In this document: one piece after another, positions 1 to 31,700 of the stretch | Numbering within the stretch: position 1 is the first letter of the stretch | How the letters are laid out: each line of letters starts with the position of its first letter | DNA from: Kofleriaceae bacterium | GTDB lineage: Bacteria; Myxococcota_A; Polyangia; Haliangiales; Haliangiaceae | Assembly: GCA_046597055.1 (NCBI GenBank) | Contig: JBKJLC010000158.1 | Location: forward strand, 1-40,155 | Direction: 5' to 3' | Length of the DNA: 40,155 bases | Made by a program: the position numbers and the translations under genes | The notes under the pieces: model-generated | The model's input: only the letters and a program-made list of their open reading frames with translations | Database searches by the model: none | What the model was told of the DNA's origin: nothing

Positions 1-3000
1 GATGCCCTCCCCGCTCTTGTAGTCCGCGTCGAGGTGGGCCTTGATGTTGGTGATGCCCGCGGCCGGGATGCCGTTGATCTGGGCGTTGAGGTGGAAGTTG
101 AGGTCGGTCTGCTTGCCCGAGCCGATCAGCACGGAGAAGTCGGCGGTGACGCTCGAGAACGAGACGCCCTTGATCTTCTTCGCCAGCTCGGTGGCGTTGA
201 TCTTGCCCTTCAGCGCGAACGCGCCGGGCTCGCCGCCGCCGGCGCCGGCGGCGACGGTGAAGTCGACGGTGCATAAATTCGCGACGTCGGCGTGTGCGTC
301 GCCCTTGACCTCGAGGCGCTTGGTCGCCGAGGTCCAGCTGGCGGTGATCTTGCTGTCGTTCTTGAACTTGACCGGGCCGTAGCCCTTCGGCTTGAGCGTG
401 CCGGTCATCGAGAAGACGCTGCCGTCGTAGGCGAGCTTCAGGGTCGAGCCGGTGTCGAGCTCGGGAATGACCTTGGGTCCGCCGACGTCGACGGCCGCCG
501 ACACCGAGACCTTGCCGTCGACGTACTCGATCTTGCCGCCGGGGCCTTGTTTGAACGCCTCGGAGATCTTGCCGAGGTTCTTCACCTCGGAGACCTTGCC
601 CTTGACCGTGAACTTGTTCCGGGCGACCGCGATCTCGGCGTTTGCCGCGAACAGGGACGCGTACTCCCCGGCGAGCGCGAGCACGATCGGGGCGTTGGTC
701 GAGAGCTTGCCCTCATCCAGTCGCATGTCGACGTCGACCGGGGCGAACATCGCGAGCTTCGCGATGTGCAGCTGCGCGTTGCCGGACAGCTTCTTGGCCT
801 TCGAGTAGTCGATCGTGAACTTGCCGGTGCCGAGGCCCTTGGCTTCCACGGCGCCGACGAAGTGCGCGGTCAACCCCTGACCCTTCGTCAGGTTGATCGT
901 GCTCTCGTCGGAGATCGTGAGATCGGCGAAGCCGAGCTTGACCGGCGGCGTGCCCGCGCGCAGCTTGACGTCGACCGTGGAGTTGGTGAGCTTGGCCTGG
1001 AGCTTGACGCCCTTCAGCGCCGGGACCTTCATGTCGACGTCGGCTGCGAGCTCGAACTTCTTCGACGTGAGGTTGATGTTCGCGGTGGTCACCTTGCCGG
1101 CGGCGACGCCCGGCACGTCGAACGTGGCCACGCCGAGGCTGACGTCGCCGGTCTCGAGGTCGGCCGAGCCGCCCTTCGACGTGAAGTACCCCTCGCCCGC
1201 CGTGAGCTCGACCTTGTCGACTTTGCCGGCGAAGCCGCCCTCCGGGGTCATGCCGAGGTGGAAGTCGCCCTTGAGCTGGGTATCGCCGATCTTCGGGTAC
1301 TTCAAGGTGCCGTCGATGGCCCCATCGACCGACACCACGCCAGCCTTGACGCTGATCTTCGCCTCGGTCGCCGTCGTCGTGATGCCGACGCCGGGGACCT
1401 TGTCCAGGACCTTGTTGATCGCCTGGGTCGCGTTGATGACCGCGGTGAAGTCGCCCTTCTCCTTGTCGCCGGAGACGTGCTTGATGACGACGCCCGCGAG
1501 CGCTGGCGAGCCGAACGTGACCGTCCCCTCCGAGGTGAACTTGCCGGTGCCGTCGGACCCCGCAGCGGCGCGCACCTTGCCCCGCAGGACGTCCTTGGTG
1601 AGCGGGGACAGCTCGAACTCGGCCTCGGCGGCCCAGGTGAACTTCCCGTCCTTCCAGCCGATCTTGGCCTCGGCGGCGGCGCCTCCGGTCTGCGCGCTGG
1701 CTTGCAGGGAGCCGTCGAGCTTCTTGCCGGGGAGCAGCTGGACATGGCCGCCCTTGATCGTGACGGTCGCGCCACCGGCCTTGATCACGGTGCCGGCGGC
1801 GGCCTGGAGCGAGCCGGTGATCTCCGTGCCCTCGAGCTTGCCCTCGAACTTGCTGAAGAGGACCTGCTTCTCGAGCGGCTTGACGTCGACGGAGATGTTG
1901 GTCGCAGCGAACGCCAGCGAGCTCGCGGCGCCGGCGCCGCGCTTGTACGTCACCGCGAGGTTGCCGCCGAGCTCCGGCCTGATCTCGGCCAACGGGATCT
2001 TCGCCTCGACCGCGAGGTCGATCGGCTGACCCTTCTTCGCGACGACTTTCGCTGAGATCGTCGACTTGATGCCGGGGACCGTGATCGTGCCCTTGACCTC
2101 GCCCTCGACGCCAAGGCCCTTCGCGATCGTCAGCTTGGAGCCGTTGGCGATCACGACGTCGACCGGGCCGAACTTGACCTTCGCGCCGCCGGCGACCGTG
2201 ACGCTGCCGCCGAGATCGCCGCCCTTCTCGTAGTTGAGCGACGCGGTCGCCGAGAAGCCGCCGGCGTTGCCGAGGTTGAACGTGCCGGTGAGGTCGCCGT
2301 TGACGACGGTGCCGTCGATCTCGATCGTCGACTTGTCGAGCGACAGCGAGGCGCCGCCCGGCAGCGGTACCGTGATCGGCGAGCCCAGGCTGAGCTTCGC
2401 CGCGAGCTCGCTCTTCGCGAGGCGGACCTGCTCGAACTTGATCGGCGCCAGCGCGGGCAGCGTGAAGTGCAAGTCCTTGCTGTCGAGCGACAGCTTGCCG
2501 GCCTTGTACTCGATGACCGCGGTGCCGGCGATCCCGGGGAGCTTGACCGGGATCTTCGCTCCGGCGTCGAACGAGACGGTCTTGCCGTCGTACTTGATGA
2601 CCGCGTCCGCCTGCGTGTCCGCGAGGCCCTTGATGTCGATCTTGCCGGTGATCGTCGCCTTGAACGTGACGCCGGCGCTGTCGACCTTGAGGGCGATCGC
2701 CATCGTGGCGGCGCCCTTGGCCATGCCGTTCTCGATGGTGACCGCCGCGTTGCCGGTGAGGCCAACCTCGATATCACCGATCGCCGACCGCTTGACCGTG
2801 AGCTCGAAGTCGCTCGTCTTGATCGGGAAGTCTTTGCTGGTGAAGTCGCTCGGCTTGAGCTTGGCCGTGCCGGTGAACCCGTCCGCGTCGAACTCGACGC
2901 TGATCTCCTTGACGAACATCCCGGGTGCGTTCACCGGGAGCTTCATCGCGCCGGAGACCTTGCCGTCCACGTCGACCGTGAGCGCGCCGGTGGTGCCCTT

Positions 3001-4557
3001 CAGCGCACCGGACTCGATCGTCGCTGCCAGCGTGGCCGACTCGACCTTGTCGCCGTTCTGCTTGAACCGGGCGGAGACGAGCTTCACCGGCCCGACGGTC
3101 TGGTTGATGTCGATCGACTTCGTGCCGTCGCCGTGGTCCTTCGCGCCGGCGAGCCGCGCGGTCAGATCGAGCGCCTGCCCCGCCAGCTTGAGCTTCCACT
3201 CCTTGGGCCCGGCGGTCGCACCGGCGGCGGGCGGCGCCGCGGCTACCTGGCGCGCGATCGTGCCCGACGTCGGCGCGCGGTCGTGGATCACCGGCGCGGG
3301 CGCGCGAACGTCAGCGGTCGGACGGGTCCGGTCCTCGGCCGCGCGCGCCTCGACCTCGACCGCGCTCGACTCGGCCGCGATCTCGACCGCGCTGCCCGCC
3401 GCCAGGTCCCCGCGGGCGTGCTGGACGACGTGGGTCAGCTCGTGGCGGAGCAGCCGATCGCCGGCGTCGGTGTTGGGCGCGTACTCGCCGTCGCCGAAGA
3501 AGATGTGGTTACCGAGCGTGAACGCCTTCGCGCCCAGGAGCCGCGCCGCCTCGGCGGCATCGGCGCCGGTGTGGATCCGGACGTTGTCGAACGCCGCGCC
3601 GAGCACGGTCTGCATCAGCTTCGCGATCTCGGCCTCGAGGGCGGTGCCGCCGCCGGCGGCCTGGGCCCGCGCGAGCGCCTGCTCGATGATCGCGCGGTCC
3701 TCCTCGAGCGTGCGACCCGACTGCGCCTTCGCTGCCAGGCGCGCCATTGGCCGGCCCGCGCTCGGGGCGTGCCGCCGGTCGTCGCCCGCGCGTCGCTGAT
3801 CGCGCGCCCCGGGCGGGACGGGCCTGACCCGGCCGGCGGCCGGCTGGTGGGCTTCGCGGGCGCCGCTGGCGGGGGTGCGGCGGGCGACGAACCCGTCGGC
3901 GCGCGGATCGGCGGCGCGCGCGCTGGCACCACGCAGCGCGCTGACGTGCAGCTCGTCGGTGTCGACCACCCCGGCCGCGTGGGCGACCTCGTCCGCGATG
4001 AGGCGCCGCCCCACCTCGGTCTCGGGCTGATACGTCCCGGCCGCGAAGTGGATATCGCGGCCGATCGTGAAGGCCTTTGCGCCCAGCGCGTTCGCGGCCG
4101 CGGCCGCCGCCGATCCGTCGTGGATGCGAATCGCGTCGAGGTCGATGCCGAACACGCCGGCCAGCTCGGCGAGCATGGTCGAGGGCAGCGGAGCTCCCGG
4201 GTCCGGGTGCACCATCACCAGCGGCTCGACCGCGTGCCGCGGGTCGACGGTCATCGCCTGGCGAGGCACCGGCACCGAGGCCAGGCGGGTCGTCCGCGGC
4301 TTCTTGCCCGGCAGCTTCGCACCCGCACCGCGACCGCCCCCGCGCGTCCGCCTCCCGGCCCCGGCCCGCGCGTGGGTCGCCTCGGGATCGTCGCGCACGA
4401 CGCCCTCCGCTTCGTCGTCGATCTGCCGGGTCGCCTCGGCGACCGCGCTGAGCCAGTCGTGCCCCGCCGCGACCAGCTCGAGCGCCCGCACCTCGATGTC
4501 GCGATCGCGCTCCGCGCCGTCCGCTTCGCCCCGGCGCCGCCGGCCCCATTCGCGCAT
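1..4557 (-). CDS. Giant tandem-DUF4157 (eCIS core domain) protein with a long beta-strand-rich C-terminal region; 3' end runs off the window (>1519 aa)
   Basis: Manual translation from ATG at 4557 (MREWGRRRRGEADG...) found no in-frame stop down to base 1, so the ORF track omits it. Two DUF4157-type blocks: IRIHDG..ALGAKAFTIGRDIHFAAGTYQPETEVGRRLIADEVAH (~3970-4200) and VRIHTG..LLGAKAFTLGNHIFFGDGEYAPNTDAGDRLLRHELTHVVQ (~3420-3650). Below ~3200 the sequence is K/G/V/T-rich with alternating beta-type patterns. Confidence 0.88.
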   Translation of the reverse strand, partial: MREWGRRRRGEADGAERDRDIEVRALELVAAGHDWLSAVAEATRQIDDEAEGVVRDDPEATHARAGAGRRTRGGGRGAGAKLPGKKPRTTRLASVPVPRQAMTVDPRHAVEPLVMVHPDPGAPLPSTMLAELAGVFGIDLDAIRIHDGSAAAAAANALGAKAFTIGRDIHFAAGTYQPETEVGRRLIADEVAHAAGVVDTDELHVSALRGASARAADPRADGFVARRTPASGAREAHQPAAGRVRPVPPGARDQRRAGDDRRHAPSAGRPMARLAAKAQSGRTLEEDRAIIEQALARAQAAGGGTALEAEIAKLMQTVLGAAFDNVRIHTGADAAEAARLLGAKAFTLGNHIFFGDGEYAPNTDAGDRLLRHELTHVVQHARGDLAAGSAVEIAAESSAVEVEARAAEDRTRPTADVRAPAPVIHDRAPTSGTIARQVAAAPPAAGATAGPKEWKLKLAGQALDLTARLAGAKDHGDGTKSIDINQTVGPVKLVSARFKQNGDKVESATLAATIESGALKGTTGALTVDVDGKVSGAMKLPVNAPGMFVKEISVEFDADGFTGTAKLKPSDFTSKDFPIKTSDFELTVKRSAIGDIEVGLTGNAAVTIENGMAKGAATMAIALKVDSAGVTFKATITGKIDIKGLADTQADAVIKYDGKTVSFDAGAKIPVKLPGIAGTAVIEYKAGKLSLDSKDLHFTLPALAPIKFEQVRLAKSELAAKLSLGSPITVPLPGGASLSLDKSTIEIDGTVVNGDLTGTFNLGNAGGFSATASLNYEKGGDLGGSVTVAGGAKVKFGPVDVVIANGSKLTIAKGLGVEGEVKGTITVPGIKSTISAKVVAKKGQPIDLAVEAKIPLAEIRPELGGNLAVTYKRGAGAASSLAFAATNISVDVKPLEKQVLFSKFEGKLEGTEITGSLQAAAGTVIKAGGATVTIKGGHVQLLPGKKLDGSLQASAQTGGAAAEAKIGWKDGKFTWAAEAEFELSPLTKDVLRGKVRAAAGSDGTGKFTSEGTVTFGSPALAGVVIKHVSGDKEKGDFTAVINATQAINKVLDKVPGVGITTTATEAKISVKAGVVSVDGAIDGTLKYPKIGDTQLKGDFHLGMTPEGGFAGKVDKVELTAGEGYFTSKGGSADLETGDVSLGVATFDVPGVAAGKVTTANINLTSKKFELAADVDMKVPALKGVKLQAKLTNSTVDVKLRAGTPPVKLGFADLTISDESTINLTKGQGLTAHFVGAVEAKGLGTGKFTIDYSKAKKLSGNAQLHIAKLAMFAPVDVDMRLDEGKLSTNAPIVLALAGEYASLFAANAEIAVARNKFTVKGKVSEVKNLGKISEAFKQGPGGKIEYVDGKVSVSAAVDVGGPKVIPELDTGSTLKLAYDGSVFSMTGTLKPKGYGPVKFKNDSKITASWTSATKRLEVKGDAHADVANLCTVDFTVAAGAGGGEPGAFALKGKINATELAKKIKGVSFSSVTADFSVLIGSGKQTDLNFHLNAQINGIPAAGITNIKAHLDADYKSGEGI

Positions 4558-26468: not shown

Positions 26469-29400
26469 ATGAGCACATTCCAGCGGGGGCGGCGGGGTGA
26501 CGGGGATCAGGACGAGGCCGAGCGCGCGATCGAAGCGCGCGCGCTGGCCCTGCTCGACGCCGGCGTCGACTGGCTGACCGCGATCGCCGAGGCGACGCGC
26601 GAGGTCGACCCGGGGCGGCTGCCGCGGGCCCGGGGCACCTCGCCGCCGGGGCGGGCGTCGACCGCAGCCTCGCTGGGACGGCGCGGTCCGCCGCGAGCGG
26701 TCGCGCCCGGCAAGCACACGCGCACGGCGCGGCTCGCGGCGCCCGCGGAGCCGGCGCTGGCGGTGCATCGCAAGGCGGTCGAGGCCGCGGCGCTCGCGGA
26801 GGACGCGCCGGAGCGGGTGCGCGTGGCGCTGCGCGGGCTCGGCGCCGCCCTGCCGGGCCCGCTCGGCGTCGAGCTGGCTCGCGCGCTGGGCGTGTCGCCC
26901 GACGCGGTCGCGGCGGTGCGCGTCCACGCCGGGCCGGCGTCGGCTGACGCGGCGGACGCGCTCGCGGCCGAGGCGTTCACGGTGGGCACCGAGATCCACT
27001 TCGCGAGCGGGGCGTACCAGCCCGACACCACCGCGGGGCGCCGGCTGATCGCGCACGAGGTCGCCCATGCGGTGGCGCCGCCGGGCGGGACGGTGATCGG
27101 GGATGAGTTGCGGGTGAGCGAGCCCGGCGAGGCGCACGAGCAGGCGGCGGAGAGGTTTGCAGACAGCTTCATCGTGCGGGGGAGTGCGGTAGCCGCACCG
27201 GCAGCGGCAGCGGCAGCGGCAGCGGCAGCGGCAGCGGCAGCGGCAGCGGGGCCCGCGGCGGTGGGGCTGCCGGTGCTGGCGGCCTCGTCGGGAGCGACGA
27301 TCCACCGGACCGAGGCCGAGCTGACCGAGGAGGAGAAGAAGAAGCGCCGGAAGAAGAAAAAGAACGGCGCGGACGACCAGGCCACGGCTGAGGAGCGTGC
27401 GGGCGCGACCGCGGGGCCCGGCGCCGCGGCCGAAGCGCAGCCGGCCGCGATGGCGACACCGGCGGGCGGCGAACCGGCAGCGACCGGCGAGGCGCCGGCG
27501 CGAGGCACCAGTCCGCTCGATCGCGAGGTCGCGAGCGCAGGCGGCGACGGGGCCAGCGAGGTGGCGCGGCAGGCCCGGGGTCGCGACGGCGGCACCGCCG
27601 AGAGTGGAACCGGCGCGCACGATCCATCCGCGGCACCCCCGGCGTCGGCGCCAGGCGCGCCGAGCGCGACGCCGGGTATGCCCGCGGCAGGTGACACCAC
27701 GCCCGCCGGTGCGACCGCCGAGGTGGACGGTGCCGCCACCGCCGGTCCTGGCCAGGCGATGGCGGGGTCAACCCGGGATACGCCCGGTGCCGCGCCCGGT
27801 GCCGCGCCCGCCGCCGTGCCGGCCGCTCCGGGCGCCGGGGCCGGAGCTCCCGCCGCTGCGGCGCCCAGTGCCGCCGGGCCGGTCGCTGCGCCTGCCGGTG
27901 GTGGCCGGGCGCCGACCGCCGCGTCCGCACCCTCGCCTGCATCCGACGCCACCGACGCCGAGCCGGCCAGCCCCGCTGCCGCCGGACCGAGCGCCGGGGG
28001 TGAGGCCAGGGCAGCGAGCTCCGGTGCGATCGAGTTCGCCGAGACCGACGTCGAGCGCCTGATCGGACCGCCGGAGCCCGACGAGGGACCCGAGCAGCAC
28101 GCCGGGCGGGTCGCCGAGGCGCGGCAAGAGCTGGCGCACGACCGCGCCCACGCCATCGCACGCGTGGGCGCGTTCCGCGGCGAGCAGGGCCAGCGCATCG
28201 CGCAGCTATCCGAGCTGGCGCCGCAGCTCGACCGCGCGCTCGCCGCCGCCGAGCAGCGCGCGGCCGCCCAGCTGTCGCAGGCTGCGGCCGCCCAGAGCGC
28301 CGCCGTGCGCGCGGCGGTCGCCCAGGCGATCGGCCAGGCCACGTCGGCCGCCACCGCTGCGCGCGCGCAGATCCAGGCCTCGCACACCGCGACCGCGGCG
28401 GCGATCAACGCGGCCACCACCGCCTCGCGCGGCCAGATCGAGAGCTCGTACCAGCAGGCGGTGCAGTCGACCCGAGCCGCGGAGACGTCGCAGATCGGCG
28501 AGGTCGCGCGCCTGTACACCCAGGCCGAGAGCGCCTTCCGCGCCGCCGCCACCGCGGCTGGTTCGCACGCGATGACGGTCGCCACCGGGCGCGCCAGCAC
28601 CTACCGCGCCGGCAAGATCCACCGCGAAGACAGCTTCCTCGACGGGGCGCTCACCGACAACCGGTGCGAGGCCCAGGCCGAGGCGGCCGACAAGGTCGGC
28701 CAGTCCTACCGCGACGAGCTGCGCACCGAGGGCGACAACCAGGTCACCCAGCTGCGCACGCGCAAGCCGACCGACGAGGCCGCGGTCCGCCAGGTCGCCG
28801 AGGAGGCGCGCCGCAACCTCGAGACCGCGCACCGCGAGAGCCTGCGCGGGCTCGACGCGGGCAAGCAGCGCGCGCTGACCAGCGCCACCCAGGCGCGCGA
28901 CGGCGCGCTCGCCGGCACCGATCGCACGCTGCAGGAGACCGTCGGGGGCCTGCGCCGGCACGAGCAGGCCCAGGTCGCGGCGATCGCCCAGCAGGCCGCC
29001 GCGGCCAAGCAGGCGGTGCAGACCCAGCGCGCCACCGCCGGCACCCAGCTGCGCGAGACGCTGACCCGGACGATCACGGATCTGACGACCGGCCTCGATC
29101 AGGCGCTCGCCGCGATCGGCGCGGCCGAGGTGCCCGATCGGGCCGGGCTCGACGAGACCCTGGCCCAGAGCGGCCAGGCGATCGAGGGCCAGATCACGCA
29201 GCTGCGCGCCGGCCTCGACCAGGGGCGCGATCAGATCGTCCAGGCGCTCGGGCAGAGCGCGACCCAGGCCGACCAGGGCCTGGCCCAGGCCGGGACCGCG
29301 GCGACCGCGGCGGCGCGCCAGACCGGCGCCGGCGGCGCCCAGGCGATCACGCAGGGCGCGACCCAGGCTGCGCAGTCGTTCCAGCAGATGACCACCGGGC

Positions 29401-30806
29401 ATCAGACCTCGACCACCGAGGCGTCGGGCGCCGCGACCCGGGGCGCCACCGGCATCGTGACCGGCCTCGGCCAGGCCTACACGACGCTGAGCGGCAATCT
29501 GCGCGACGGCATGCAGCGCAACGCCGATGCGGTGCGCGACGGCCTGAGCGCGGTCGTCGACCGCGACATGGGTGGGACCATCACCACCGAGGCCCAGGCC
29601 GCGCGCGACCAGGTCAAGCCGCGGTGGCAGTCGGTCCTGCGCTGGGTGATCATCATCGCGATCGTCCTGGTCGTGGCGATCGTGCTCGGCCCGATGGTGA
29701 TCGGGGCGATCACCGGCCTGGCGGCCGGCCTCGGCGCCAGCGCCGCGGTCGCCGGCGTGGTGGGCACCGTGGTCGGCGGCGCGATCGTCGGCGCCGGCAC
29801 CGCCGCGGTCACGACGGTGGTCGACAACGCGTTCGCCGGCCGCACCGGCTGGGACCTGTTCCAGGGCGTCGGCACCGCGATGGCGTGGGGCGCGCTCGGC
29901 GGCGCGCTCGGCGGCGGCGCCTCGGCGCTGCTGGCCGGCCCGATGCAGGGCATGACCGCCCTCGCCCGCTACGGCCTCCAGGTCGGCGTCGACATGGTGC
30001 TCGACGTCGGCATCAGCGCGCTCAGCGGCAACCTGTCGTGGGAGAACTTCGGCACCAGCCTGCTGATGTCGATGATGGTCAACGGGGTCACGGCCCACCC
30101 GCGGGTGCACGCGGCCTCGCAGCGCGCGATGAGCCGCGGCTACGGCAGCGGGTTCGAGGCCGGCGTGGGGCTGCGCAGCCGGCTGCCGGGCGCACCGGCG
30201 GCGCCGGGTCCGATCTCGAGCGCGGCCCGCATGGAGCACATCGCGCGCGGCGATACCTCGCCGGCAACCAGCCCCAACGCTGGCAAGTGGAGCGTGCAGC
30301 CGAACAGCGGTGGCCACGCACCGGGCGAGATCATCCCGCGGGCCAACGCCGAGGGCGTGCCGCACCACACCCGCGCGACCGATCCGGTCAGCGGCGTGGC
30401 GATCGAACAGTTCACCCGGCCCAGCGGGGCCACCACCGACAAGTCGCTGTTCCCGCCCGGCACCGAACGGCCTCACATCGAAGCGATGGGGCGCACGGGA
30501 CTCGAGCGTGCACTCGGCGGCGCCAGCACCGGGCTTCCGACCGGAAGCGACCACGTACCGCCGGCCGGTCCGGGCCAGAATGGAAGCTTCCGAGCGGTGG
30601 TCCAGGGGCCCAACGGTCACCCGATCATCGTCGAGGGCTACTACCGGCCGGACGGCGCTGGTGGGTACACCATCGAGAGCGTCTACCCGAAGAGTAACTT
30701 GCAGACCGGCGAGATTCCGGTCGTCGGTGGCACCGGCCTCGGCGGGTCGCGCACCGTCCCGATGCCGGGCTACGCCACCCCACCCGCCACCAGCGAGGAC
30801 CGCTGA
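26469..30806 (+). CDS. DUF4157-containing polymorphic toxin with coiled-coil/TM region and C-terminal bacterial EndoU-like nuclease
   Basis: AFTVGTEIHFASGAYQPDTTAGRRLIAHEVAH; Ala/Pro linker; long Ala/Gln helical region; TM/glycine-zipper WVIIIAIVLVVAIVLG...; C-terminal EHIARG...GGH...KSLFP...IESVYP. Confidence 0.85.
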   Translation: MSTFQRGRRGDGDQDEAERAIEARALALLDAGVDWLTAIAEATREVDPGRLPRARGTSPPGRASTAASLGRRGPPRAVAPGKHTRTARLAAPAEPALAVHRKAVEAAALAEDAPERVRVALRGLGAALPGPLGVELARALGVSPDAVAAVRVHAGPASADAADALAAEAFTVGTEIHFASGAYQPDTTAGRRLIAHEVAHAVAPPGGTVIGDELRVSEPGEAHEQAAERFADSFIVRGSAVAAPAAAAAAAAAAAAAAAAGPAAVGLPVLAASSGATIHRTEAELTEEEKKKRRKKKKNGADDQATAEERAGATAGPGAAAEAQPAAMATPAGGEPAATGEAPARGTSPLDREVASAGGDGASEVARQARGRDGGTAESGTGAHDPSAAPPASAPGAPSATPGMPAAGDTTPAGATAEVDGAATAGPGQAMAGSTRDTPGAAPGAAPAAVPAAPGAGAGAPAAAAPSAAGPVAAPAGGGRAPTAASAPSPASDATDAEPASPAAAGPSAGGEARAASSGAIEFAETDVERLIGPPEPDEGPEQHAGRVAEARQELAHDRAHAIARVGAFRGEQGQRIAQLSELAPQLDRALAAAEQRAAAQLSQAAAAQSAAVRAAVAQAIGQATSAATAARAQIQASHTATAAAINAATTASRGQIESSYQQAVQSTRAAETSQIGEVARLYTQAESAFRAAATAAGSHAMTVATGRASTYRAGKIHREDSFLDGALTDNRCEAQAEAADKVGQSYRDELRTEGDNQVTQLRTRKPTDEAAVRQVAEEARRNLETAHRESLRGLDAGKQRALTSATQARDGALAGTDRTLQETVGGLRRHEQAQVAAIAQQAAAAKQAVQTQRATAGTQLRETLTRTITDLTTGLDQALAAIGAAEVPDRAGLDETLAQSGQAIEGQITQLRAGLDQGRDQIVQALGQSATQADQGLAQAGTAATAAARQTGAGGAQAITQGATQAAQSFQQMTTGHQTSTTEASGAATRGATGIVTGLGQAYTTLSGNLRDGMQRNADAVRDGLSAVVDRDMGGTITTEAQAARDQVKPRWQSVLRWVIIIAIVLVVAIVLGPMVIGAITGLAAGLGASAAVAGVVGTVVGGAIVGAGTAAVTTVVDNAFAGRTGWDLFQGVGTAMAWGALGGALGGGASALLAGPMQGMTALARYGLQVGVDMVLDVGISALSGNLSWENFGTSLLMSMMVNGVTAHPRVHAASQRAMSRGYGSGFEAGVGLRSRLPGAPAAPGPISSAARMEHIARGDTSPATSPNAGKWSVQPNSGGHAPGEIIPRANAEGVPHHTRATDPVSGVAIEQFTRPSGATTDKSLFPPGTERPHIEAMGRTGLERALGGASTGLPTGSDHVPPAGPGQNGSFRAVVQGPNGHPIIVEGYYRPDGAGGYTIESVYPKSNLQTGEIPVVGGTGLGGSRTVPMPGYATPPATSEDR
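27201..27248 (+). repeat. (GCAGCG)8 hexamer repeat encoding poly-Ala
   Basis: Counted directly. Confidence 0.95.
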
Positions 30807-30809
30807 CCC

Positions 30810-31700
30810 ATGGACGCCGACCGACTCGATGCAATCGCCGCTACCCAGATCATCGGTGACCCCGAGGTCGCGCACTGCTGGCCGCTGATCCGCGAGGGCA
30901 TCCGGACCGACAAGATCGGCCTCGGCAATCTGGCGAACCTGATCGCGCACCTGCGGGCCGGCAACGGCAAGACGCTCGACGAGCTCACCGTCGAGGTGCT
31001 CCTCGACGATCCCGCCCGCGTCCTGGTCGCCCTGCTCGACGATCACCGCACTTGCCCGCCCACCGCCCTGATCGTCGAGCTCGAGCGGCTGCTCGTGCGG
31101 GCCGGCGGCAGCGCCGGATCGTCGCCATCGCCCGGGGCGCCGCCTCCGTCGAGCGTGCCGCCGGCCGGCCGATCGGCTGGCCCGGCCGACGCGCCCGACC
31201 TGCTCGGCGTGCTCGCCGGCCTGCTCGGGACCACGCCGGCGCGGCTGGCCGGCGATCCCGACGCCTACCGCGCGCAGGTCGAGCGCGTGCGCACCGCGAC
31301 CGCCTCGCTCGCCGCCGCGGTCGCCGATCCCACCGGCGACGACGCCGGGCGCCGCGCGGCCGCGGCCGGGCTCCGTCAGGTCCTCGTCGACACCGTCGCG
31401 TCTGCCGACGCCACCGCGCAGGCGCGCACCGCCGACGTGCCCGCGACCCTGGCCGCGCTCGGCATCGACCTCGATCGCTTCGCGGCCGCGCTGCGCACGG
31501 TCACCGACTGGCTCGAGCAGCGCACGCCCGCCGCGGGCGCTGCGGTCGATCGCCTGGTGGCCGCGCTCGATGCCGCCGCCGGGCCGCTCCTGGGCGGCCC
31601 CGATCGGGCCGCGCGCGACGCCGCGCGCGACGACCGCGCGCGCACCGCAGCGCGGACCGCGATCGCGGCCCGCCTGGGCAAACCTCCCACCGCCAGCTGA
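30810..31700 (+). CDS. Putative immunity protein for the upstream toxin
   Basis: ATG 3 nt after the toxin stop, same strand. ~100-aa helical N-domain, Pro/Ser linker, second helical domain. No recognised family. Confidence 0.6.
   Translation: MDADRLDAIAATQIIGDPEVAHCWPLIREGIRTDKIGLGNLANLIAHLRAGNGKTLDELTVEVLLDDPARVLVALLDDHRTCPPTALIVELERLLVRAGGSAGSSPSPGAPPPSSVPPAGRSAGPADAPDLLGVLAGLLGTTPARLAGDPDAYRAQVERVRTATASLAAAVADPTGDDAGRRAAAAGLRQVLVDTVASADATAQARTADVPATLAALGIDLDRFAAALRTVTDWLEQRTPAAGAAVDRLVAALDAAAGPLLGGPDRAARDAARDDRARTAARTAIAARLGKPPTAS

What the first reader, a model, noticed from the sequence alone, without database searches (positions are those of the whole stretch)
4285..4557. Unassigned N-terminal leader shared by two otherwise different DUF4157 giants: candidate loading/targeting signal of a polymorphic effector family
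Seen: the protein at 4557(-) begins RRRRGEADGAERDRDIEVRALELVAAGHDWLSAVAEATRQID and the one at 26469(+) begins RGRRGDGDQDEAERAIEARALALLDAGVDWLTAIAEATREVD. The consensus is IE.RAL.L..AG.DWL.A.AEATR..D. After a variable spacer both have PGK..RT.RLA (PGKKPRTTRLA / PGKHTRTARLA), then DUF4157, then DEL.VS. The C-termini are unrelated and neither protein has a Sec signal. Known: DUF4157 is associated with extracellular contractile injection systems and is often N-terminal to toxin domains. Inference: this ~30-aa helix plus PGK box is a lineage-specific export or loading tag for a dispersed effector family. I do not recognise it as a named domain.
Basis: partly seen in the sequence, partly recalled or inferred. 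Interest (0 to 1): 0.85.

Follow-up and report, generated by a model that had tools for sequence, protein, structure and literature searches.

The report
Candidate loading tag on myxobacterial effectors
The shared start of these two proteins is two things: a short motif found near the front of most likely cargo proteins of a syringe-like injection machine in one order of uncultured myxobacteria, probably the label that gets them loaded, and a small swappable helical cap found only in one branch of one genus.

Summary

(1) The PGK box, [PA]G[KR]x[TS]x[TS]xxL, precedes the eCIS_core (DUF4157) domain in 20 of 26 such ORFs of this Kofleriaceae genome. It is in 69 of 84 from other genomes of the order, against 3 of 29 in other Myxococcota and 1 of 27 in other phyla, where a different GNxA box dominates. 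It usually starts 19-24 residues after a Met.

(2) The 30-residue helical hairpin is rare: 3 proteins here, 9 of 16 genus relatives, none real in 121 genomes of other genera. It rides on unrelated cores and bodies. Other genera put a different helical cap, or none, on the same bodies.

The genome has a CIS operon, four dispersed Pvc15-like ATPases and no T6SS sheath. Best reading: the box marks the CIS loading sequence and the helix is an exchangeable add-on. Loading itself is inferred, not shown. I found no paper describing either motif.

The parts
4417..4506 (-). Helical hairpin cap (class I), residues 18-47 of the 4557 protein; preceded by an Arg-rich RRG-acidic stretch
   Evidence: AlphaFold helices 8-30 and 35-55, pLDDT 88-98 over residues 11-50
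4279..4311 (-). PGK box of the 4557 protein; a weak copy, not recognised by the matrix trained on other genomes
3979..4197 (-). First eCIS_core (DUF4157), HExxH degenerate (D for the first His); same clade as the core of the 26469 protein
3409..3639 (-). Second eCIS_core, intact HExxH; belongs to the body shared with another genus
1..3738 (-). Body of the 4557 protein: second core plus a long, probably beta-rich region, cut by the contig end. Closest relatives (76-77%) are in another genus and lack the helix cap
26520..26609 (+). Helical hairpin cap (class I) of the 26469 protein
26706..26738 (+). PGK box of the 26469 protein; rank 6 of 16.1 million six-frame positions with a matrix trained on other genomes
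26868..27077 (+). eCIS_core (DUF4157), intact HExxH
30228..30689 (+). C-terminal domain, probable EndoU/BECR-type ribonuclease toxin, behind a helical region and a hydrophobic segment (about residues 1052-1106)
   Evidence: invariant His, GGH and Lys-Ser-x-Phe-Pro in 22 aligned sequences; fold match Z 6.3 over 116 residues to 5hkq, tied with other RNase toxins; hydropathy
30810..31700 (+). 296-aa gene directly downstream, probable immunity protein
   Evidence: homologs carry locus tags adjacent to two toxin homologs; 10 of 22 toxin homologs share a contig length with one

Best explanation
Both genes encode cargo for the chromosomal contractile injection system (CIS) of Kofleriaceae. The disordered N-terminus carrying the PGK box is the loading sequence. 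A Pvc15-type AAA+ ATPase recognises it, unfolds the cargo and threads it into the tube, and the C-terminal domain acts in the target after injection. The helical hairpin is an optional cap between the N-terminal RG-acidic stretch and the box, in one branch of one genus, and it moves between cargo genes with the 5' cassette. It most likely tunes recognition, stability or timing and does not define the family. Shown here: both motifs, their ranges and positions, protein-level conservation, cap exchange on common bodies, and co-occurrence with CIS and ATPase genes. Taken from other systems: the region before DUF4157 is the loading sequence and needs the AAA+ protein. Inferred, not shown: that this box is the recognised element, which ATPase reads it, and what the cap does.
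For: Box range: 17/19 in the same genus, 38/51 in other genera, 14/14 in another family of the order (shuffle expectations 2.6, 5.4, 1.2), vs 3/29 and 1/27 outside (2.5, 2.4). Outside, a GNxA box takes its place in 12/29 and 21/27 (expected 1.0, 1.2). Held-out matrix test: 17 of 20 same-genus and 15 of 40 other-genus loci score at least 14 bits. Reverse test: a matrix from 66 boxes of other genomes puts 12 eCIS_core ORFs in the top 20 of 16.1 million positions here. Three more are complete ORFs with the box near the N-terminus and no Pfam core; one is a broken gene. The box starts 19-24 residues after the nearest Met in 13 cap-less proteins. Machinery: CIS operon on C74 and four WHD+AAA genes; no VipB. 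Of 61 family genomes, 51 have at least 2 cores and at least 2 ATPases, 7 have neither, 3 are discordant. Cap exchange: the 4557 body has no cap in genus g8 and a different cap in g14, with a box in all 7 whose N-terminus is seen. The 26469 toxin body carries the other cap in P0027 and P0028. The helix is conserved as protein: codon-position identity 0.66/0.68/0.54 vs 0.39/0.25/0.43 expected. Precedent: in AlgoCIS the region before DUF4157 is required for loading, DUF4157 is not, and the sequence is proposed to be AAA+-specific (10.64898/2026.05.27.728243; passages and section 12 read).
Against: No direct evidence of loading. Six of 26 eCIS_core ORFs here lack the box (three are fragments). In other genera 13 of 51 lack it, 11 of them with neither box. 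Two of the three capped proteins here have weak boxes that the foreign matrix misses (best scores 8.9 and 7.0). The regular expression was written, so only searches are near-independent tests, and the home matrix still broke ties. Genomes are kin, so co-occurrence figures overstate. No ATPase paralog tracks the helix. A folded hairpin at the N-terminus contrasts with the disordered loading sequences described. In Streptomyces a DUF4157 protein was tested for binding to spike proteins and binds its partner cargo (passages), so docking may not need a leader.
Confidence: 0.58

Rival explanations
1. The box and cap bind a chaperone, protease or regulator in the producer, keeping the toxin inactive or setting its half-life. 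Loading depends only on general disorder or on DUF4157 docking.
For: PVC signal peptides change cargo stability (PMC11495950, passages). Published loading sequences are disordered and not conserved between systems. Short helix-only proteins exist (P0012, P0017, P0019; G008:C100, behind an ECF sigma gene) and could act in trans.
Against: The box is also on proteins with no Pfam core, keeps a narrow distance from the Met, and is replaced by another box in other lineages, as expected of a machine-specific address.
Confidence: 0.2
2. Both motifs are inherited leftovers of a 5' cassette copied during the family's expansion, with no function of their own.
For: The two window cores are in one clade. 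Helix-positive genomes cluster on a marker tree (8 of 8 on one side plus G013, 2 changes). The box is short and degenerate.
Against: The flanking spacers are not alignable while the motifs persist. Of identical-residue codon pairs, 42% differ synonymously. The helix needs at least 7 gains or losses on a tree of 71 cores, second cores included. The box survives cap exchange.
Confidence: 0.12
3. One reading: helix plus box is one dedicated loading tag for a sub-class of large cargo, read by its own loader.
For: All 14 genus copies and all 3 home copies have the helix at the N-terminus followed by a box-like stretch (by eye). Boxes are weak in two capped proteins here, so the helix may compensate. 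A helix-less body from another genus acquired the whole cassette.
Against: Two ATPase paralogs occur in 15/16 and 13/16 genus genomes regardless of helix. The third is in 7 of 7 helix-negative and 1 of 8 helix-positive relatives sampled (hits of 59% identity or more). The fourth was not tested separately. Capped proteins are not all large.
Confidence: 0.1

Closest known systems
AlgoCIS cargo Cgo1/Cgo2 loading sequence (PMC8894135; bioRxiv 10.64898/2026.05.27.728243)
   Same: N-terminal region, then DUF4157, then a variable C-terminus; two cargos of one system share N-terminal similarity; an AAA+ protein is needed for loading.
   Different: Two cargos inside the CIS cluster there; about 25 dispersed genes and four dispersed ATPases here. 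No motif is described there; here a short motif is conserved across an order, and a folded cap can precede it.
PVC signal peptides and Pvc15 (PMC11495950)
   Same: N-terminal tag of 50-70 residues; signal peptides fall into homology groups; ATPase with an N-domain and tandem AAA domains (here PF22977 + PF00004).
   Different: PVC cargos lack DUF4157 and lie beside their operon; the text passages read give groups but no consensus motif. No sequence comparison with PVC peptides was run.
eCIS-associated toxins with DUF4157 / eCIS_core PF13699 (PMC8213781; PMC11297309)
   Same: N-terminal DUF4157, long linker, C-terminal toxin, hydrophilic N-terminus.
   Different: PMC11297309 states that no conserved signal peptide sequence was detected. 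Neither paper's DUF4157 passages describe this motif; Myxococc- occurs 0 times in the main text of PMC8213781.
DUF2934 (PF11154), a lead recalled from memory
   Same: Short helix-Gly-helix with DW.
   Different: Profile comparison with the genome's single copy gave 1% probability over 6 columns; Pfam did not report it for any of 17 members at E up to 1.

Membership tests
eCIS/CIS cargo with DUF4157 | eCIS_core domain near the N-terminus | tested here: met
   PF13699, E 1e-19 and 2e-50
eCIS/CIS cargo with DUF4157 | CIS structural operon in the genome | tested here: met
   C74: Pvc16_N, 2 sheaths, 2 gp19 tubes, CIS_tube, GPD, gpV, gp25, baseplate J
eCIS/CIS cargo with DUF4157 | Pvc15-type AAA+ ATPase | tested here: met
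   four genes with AAA plus a WHD match (three above the Pfam cut-off), found with ATPases from other CIS loci; none inside the operon
eCIS/CIS cargo with DUF4157 | Encoded beside the CIS operon | tested here: not met
   cargo genes lie on other contigs, among housekeeping genes
eCIS/CIS cargo with DUF4157 | Variable C-terminal effector with cognate immunity gene | tested here: inconclusive
   26469: conserved catalytic-like residues, middling fold match and a co-travelling downstream gene. 4557: C-terminus not assembled
eCIS/CIS cargo with DUF4157 | Present inside purified particles | not testable with these tools
   needs proteomics
eCIS N-terminal loading sequence | Disordered, hydrophilic N-terminus | tested here: inconclusive
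   the model has no secondary structure after residue 61 (pLDDT 57-65) but a confident hairpin before it; the box lay just beyond the modelled 80 residues
eCIS N-terminal loading sequence | Necessary and sufficient for loading, AAA+-dependent | not testable with these tools
   needs mutants and fusions
T6SS effector | T6SS sheath (VipB) in the genome | tested here: not met
   0 matches in a 94% complete genome
EndoU ribonuclease toxin | His-His-Lys catalytic set on an EndoU fold (features recalled) | tested here: inconclusive
   H16, H42 and K84 invariant; VIA Z 6.3, rmsd 3.7, tied with BrnT-like toxins; mean pLDDT 65; no Pfam hit
DUF2934 | Profile match | tested here: not met

The most novel reading that the evidence does not exclude
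CIS cargo is addressed by a modular code. A short lineage-specific linear motif (PGK box in this order, GNxA box in many other bacteria) is read by the AAA+ loader, and exchangeable helical caps sort cargo sub-classes or naturalise foreign genes. One machine could then draw on 20-70 dispersed cargo genes per genome, and helix-only proteins could act as competitors or adaptors.
Probability: 0.3. Interest if true: 0.85.

Novelty: new variant of a known kind. Interest (0 to 1): 0.62.

Why it matters
How CIS machines pick their cargo is open: one paper found no conserved signal (PMC11297309) and a 2026 preprint calls the mechanism unclear for any eCIS (10.64898/2026.05.27.728243). A defined motif of about ten residues turns this into point-mutant experiments. 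It also finds candidate cargo that lacks DUF4157 (three complete ORFs here) and exposes large dispersed repertoires in Kofleriaceae (21-72 core matches per genome in 16 genomes of this genus). The helix alone is a narrow feature of one sub-lineage.

Tried and rejected
DUF2934 likeness: rejected. Helix outside the genus: 16 weak hits (15 in other genera, 1 in G016) were all internal, partial and without a core nearby. Two of 16 rows and 3 of 19 library hits (P0015, P0020, P0021) were dropped as chance. Only 50 candidates per genome were scored, and the model contained the 17 known copies. Helix fold: Foldseek found nothing below E 1.4; PDB sequence search nothing below E 7; the ESM Atlas gave no usable hit twice. 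Homology between cap classes I and II: 5% probability, only the RG-acidic start aligns. A helix-specific ATPase: not found. A shared upstream DNA element: none seen by eye in 70 nt before 17 genes. Complex prediction of one ATPase with the 26469 leader: no verdict. RNA data: no RNA holder listed. The search for related loci with leader alignments gave nothing or could not run. A homolog search with the P0027 cap returned only itself; the genome search with the P0028 cap worked. Foldseek on the toxin model: no match at E 0.001 or better. Literature: seven searches, two for literal motif strings; no listed title concerns these motifs. Subscription journals, figure alignments and supplements were not seen, and preprint supplements are closed, so a description there is not excluded. 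Four look-ups in earlier findings gave nothing relevant.

Full report
Setting. The window is the whole contig C179 of an 8.38 Mb, 72% GC draft genome (94% complete, 7.55% contaminated). The eight best-ranked relatives of its sheath protein are 86-89% identical and six of them are labelled Kofleriaceae, so I treat it as Kofleriaceae. That this family lies in the order Haliangiales of the Myxococcota is recalled.

Observation. Both leaders are as described and far above chance (score 166 vs shuffle maximum 74). The bodies are unrelated. Pfam sees only eCIS_core. The 4557 gene is cut by the contig end and has two cores.

The leader is two elements. A model from the two leaders found a third copy of the helix at C104, also before an eCIS_core. 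All 26 core-bearing ORFs of the genome were then read. The helix is in 3 of them; a PGK-like box is in 20.

Range of the helix. It occurs in 9 of 16 other genomes of the genus: 14 copies after dropping 2 chance rows. Eleven precede a core, two run off a contig end, and one is a 92-aa protein. A 17-sequence model found no new real copy in 138 family genomes. Against 1.84 billion representatives it gave 19 hits, 16 real by inspection and all near the N-terminus. Ten of these have a core, two look like fragments, three are 57-67 aa helix-only proteins, and one has an unrelated tail. It is predicted as a helical hairpin, matches no family and is conserved as protein. On a marker tree of 16 genomes it fills one side (8 of 8) plus G013; that split has support 87, the root is a midpoint and G001 was not placed. 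On a tree of 71 cores the label needs 11 changes, at least 7 forced, with second cores counted and few columns. The two window first cores share a clade.

Range of the box. A matrix from this genome scored at least 14 bits upstream of the core in 17 of 20 loci of genus relatives and 15 of 40 of other genera; 22 of those 40 beat the best of 20 shuffles. These loci were chosen from the strongest core matches, not at random. A pattern written afterwards matched 17/19, 38/51 and 14/14 within the order, and 3/29 and 1/27 outside, near chance. Outside, a GNxA pattern matched 12/29 and 21/27. In the reverse test, 12 of the top 20 sites in this genome were core-bearing ORFs, four were box-bearing N-termini without a Pfam core (one of them a broken gene) and four were false, one a P-loop. 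The box starts 19-24 residues after the nearest Met in 13 cap-less proteins and 77 residues after it in the 26469 protein; these starts are not verified. The 4557 and C104 boxes were missed.

Caps are exchanged. The 4557 body has relatives in 11 of 137 genomes, none in its own genus. The two closest, in genus g8, match from just before the second core (81% over 103 residues for one of them). They have one core, no helix and their own box, and an ATPase gene lies 1.3 and 4.2 kb away. The 4557 gene therefore looks like a local cassette joined to a body from elsewhere (inference). In genus g14 the same body carries another helical cap (4 of 5 visible N-termini hit the class II model) and a box. 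This class II cap has 34 matches in 12 of 138 genomes; of 30 read, 26 are followed by the box pattern and 23 by a core within 500 residues. It also heads two relatives of the 26469 toxin. It is not detectably homologous to class I and matches no Pfam family.

Machinery. C74 holds a CIS operon without an ATPase. Relatives have it at a shared site near a gene I read as aspS in 4 of 6 loci examined. Four Pvc15-like ATPases lie elsewhere. No T6SS sheath was found. Sheath genes are in 50 of 61 family genomes. No ATPase tracks the helix.

Cargo. The 26469 protein ends in a domain with invariant His, His and Lys residues. Its model resembles RNase toxins, with the longest of the top alignments to CdiA-CT 5hkq (Z 6.3, 116 residues). 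That this entry is EndoU-type is recalled, and Z under 8 is weak. The downstream gene travels with it. Other helix-bearing genes end in different domains and are followed by TPR, ankyrin or unknown genes.

Literature. I read passages of PMC11297309, PMC8213781, PMC12210884, PMC11495950, PMC8894135 and 10.1101/2025.11.06.686954 (131), and passages plus section 12 of 10.64898/2026.05.27.728243 (19, 116). They establish N-terminal loading sequences that depend on an AAA+ protein and are not conserved between systems. None of the text seen describes these motifs. Supplements and figures were not seen.

Verdict. The feature is real and undescribed as far as searched. The candidate loading signal is the order-wide box, not the helix, which is an exchangeable cap of a sub-lineage. 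Function is inferred from position, distribution and precedent (confidence 0.58). New variant of a known kind; interest 0.62.

Noticed in passing
L177-L233, L258-L287: A GNxA box, often LQRxxGNxAV, precedes DUF4157 in 21 of 27 proteins at CIS loci of other phyla and 12 of 29 in other Myxococcota. It may be a widespread counterpart of the PGK box and deserves its own study.
   Followed up: partly
L288-L317 (G064, G027, G036 and others): A second, unrelated helical cap (class II) before the PGK box, with 6-10 matches per genome in genus g12.
   Followed up: partly
L060:2211-2486 (G008:C100); P0012: A 92-aa helix-plus-box protein directly behind an ECF sigma factor gene; P0012 has the same start and end but lacks the box.
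   Followed up: partly
G000 C41:1937-6280, C208:82977-81295, C259:27998-26706: Box-bearing ORFs with no Pfam core: candidate cargo missed by domain searches. C208 has a HExxH metallopeptidase-like region.
   Followed up: partly
G000 C208:16580-14448, C233:77186-74205, C230:2417-5815, C79:17309-19399: Four dispersed Pvc15-like ATPases; relatives have up to 19 matches. C230 has an extra N-terminal region of about 390 residues.
   Followed up: partly
G000 C74:17126-12006; C286:9124-8168; C252:24962-26320: A low-complexity gene of about 1,700 codons inside the CIS operon, conserved in position in relatives, and orphan tube-like genes outside it.
   Followed up: no
G000 C178, C150, C213, C294, C90, C288, C292, C46, C38, C207 and others: A dispersed repeat with about 20 near-identical copies among the top 60 rows, often near contig ends; possibly REP- or MITE-like.
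   Followed up: no
G000 C287:14340-17201: Cargo with a third kind of N-terminal extension before the box, plus SH3 and DUF6861 domains.
   Followed up: no
G063:C15, G036:C27: Two box-less core proteins lie 17 and 9 kb from sheath genes other than the genome's best sheath match, and one has the GNxA box. Anecdotal hint that box type follows machine type.
   Followed up: no
G000 C61:9700-10347: A 216-aa core-only protein without the box, behind a different AAA ATPase and FHA-type genes.
   Followed up: no
window 5033-36113: Other window genes match AMMECR1, UDG, CoaBC-type flavoprotein, DUF6909, malic enzyme, Hsp70, SOUL and a multiheme cytochrome; nothing ties them to the cargo genes.
   Followed up: no
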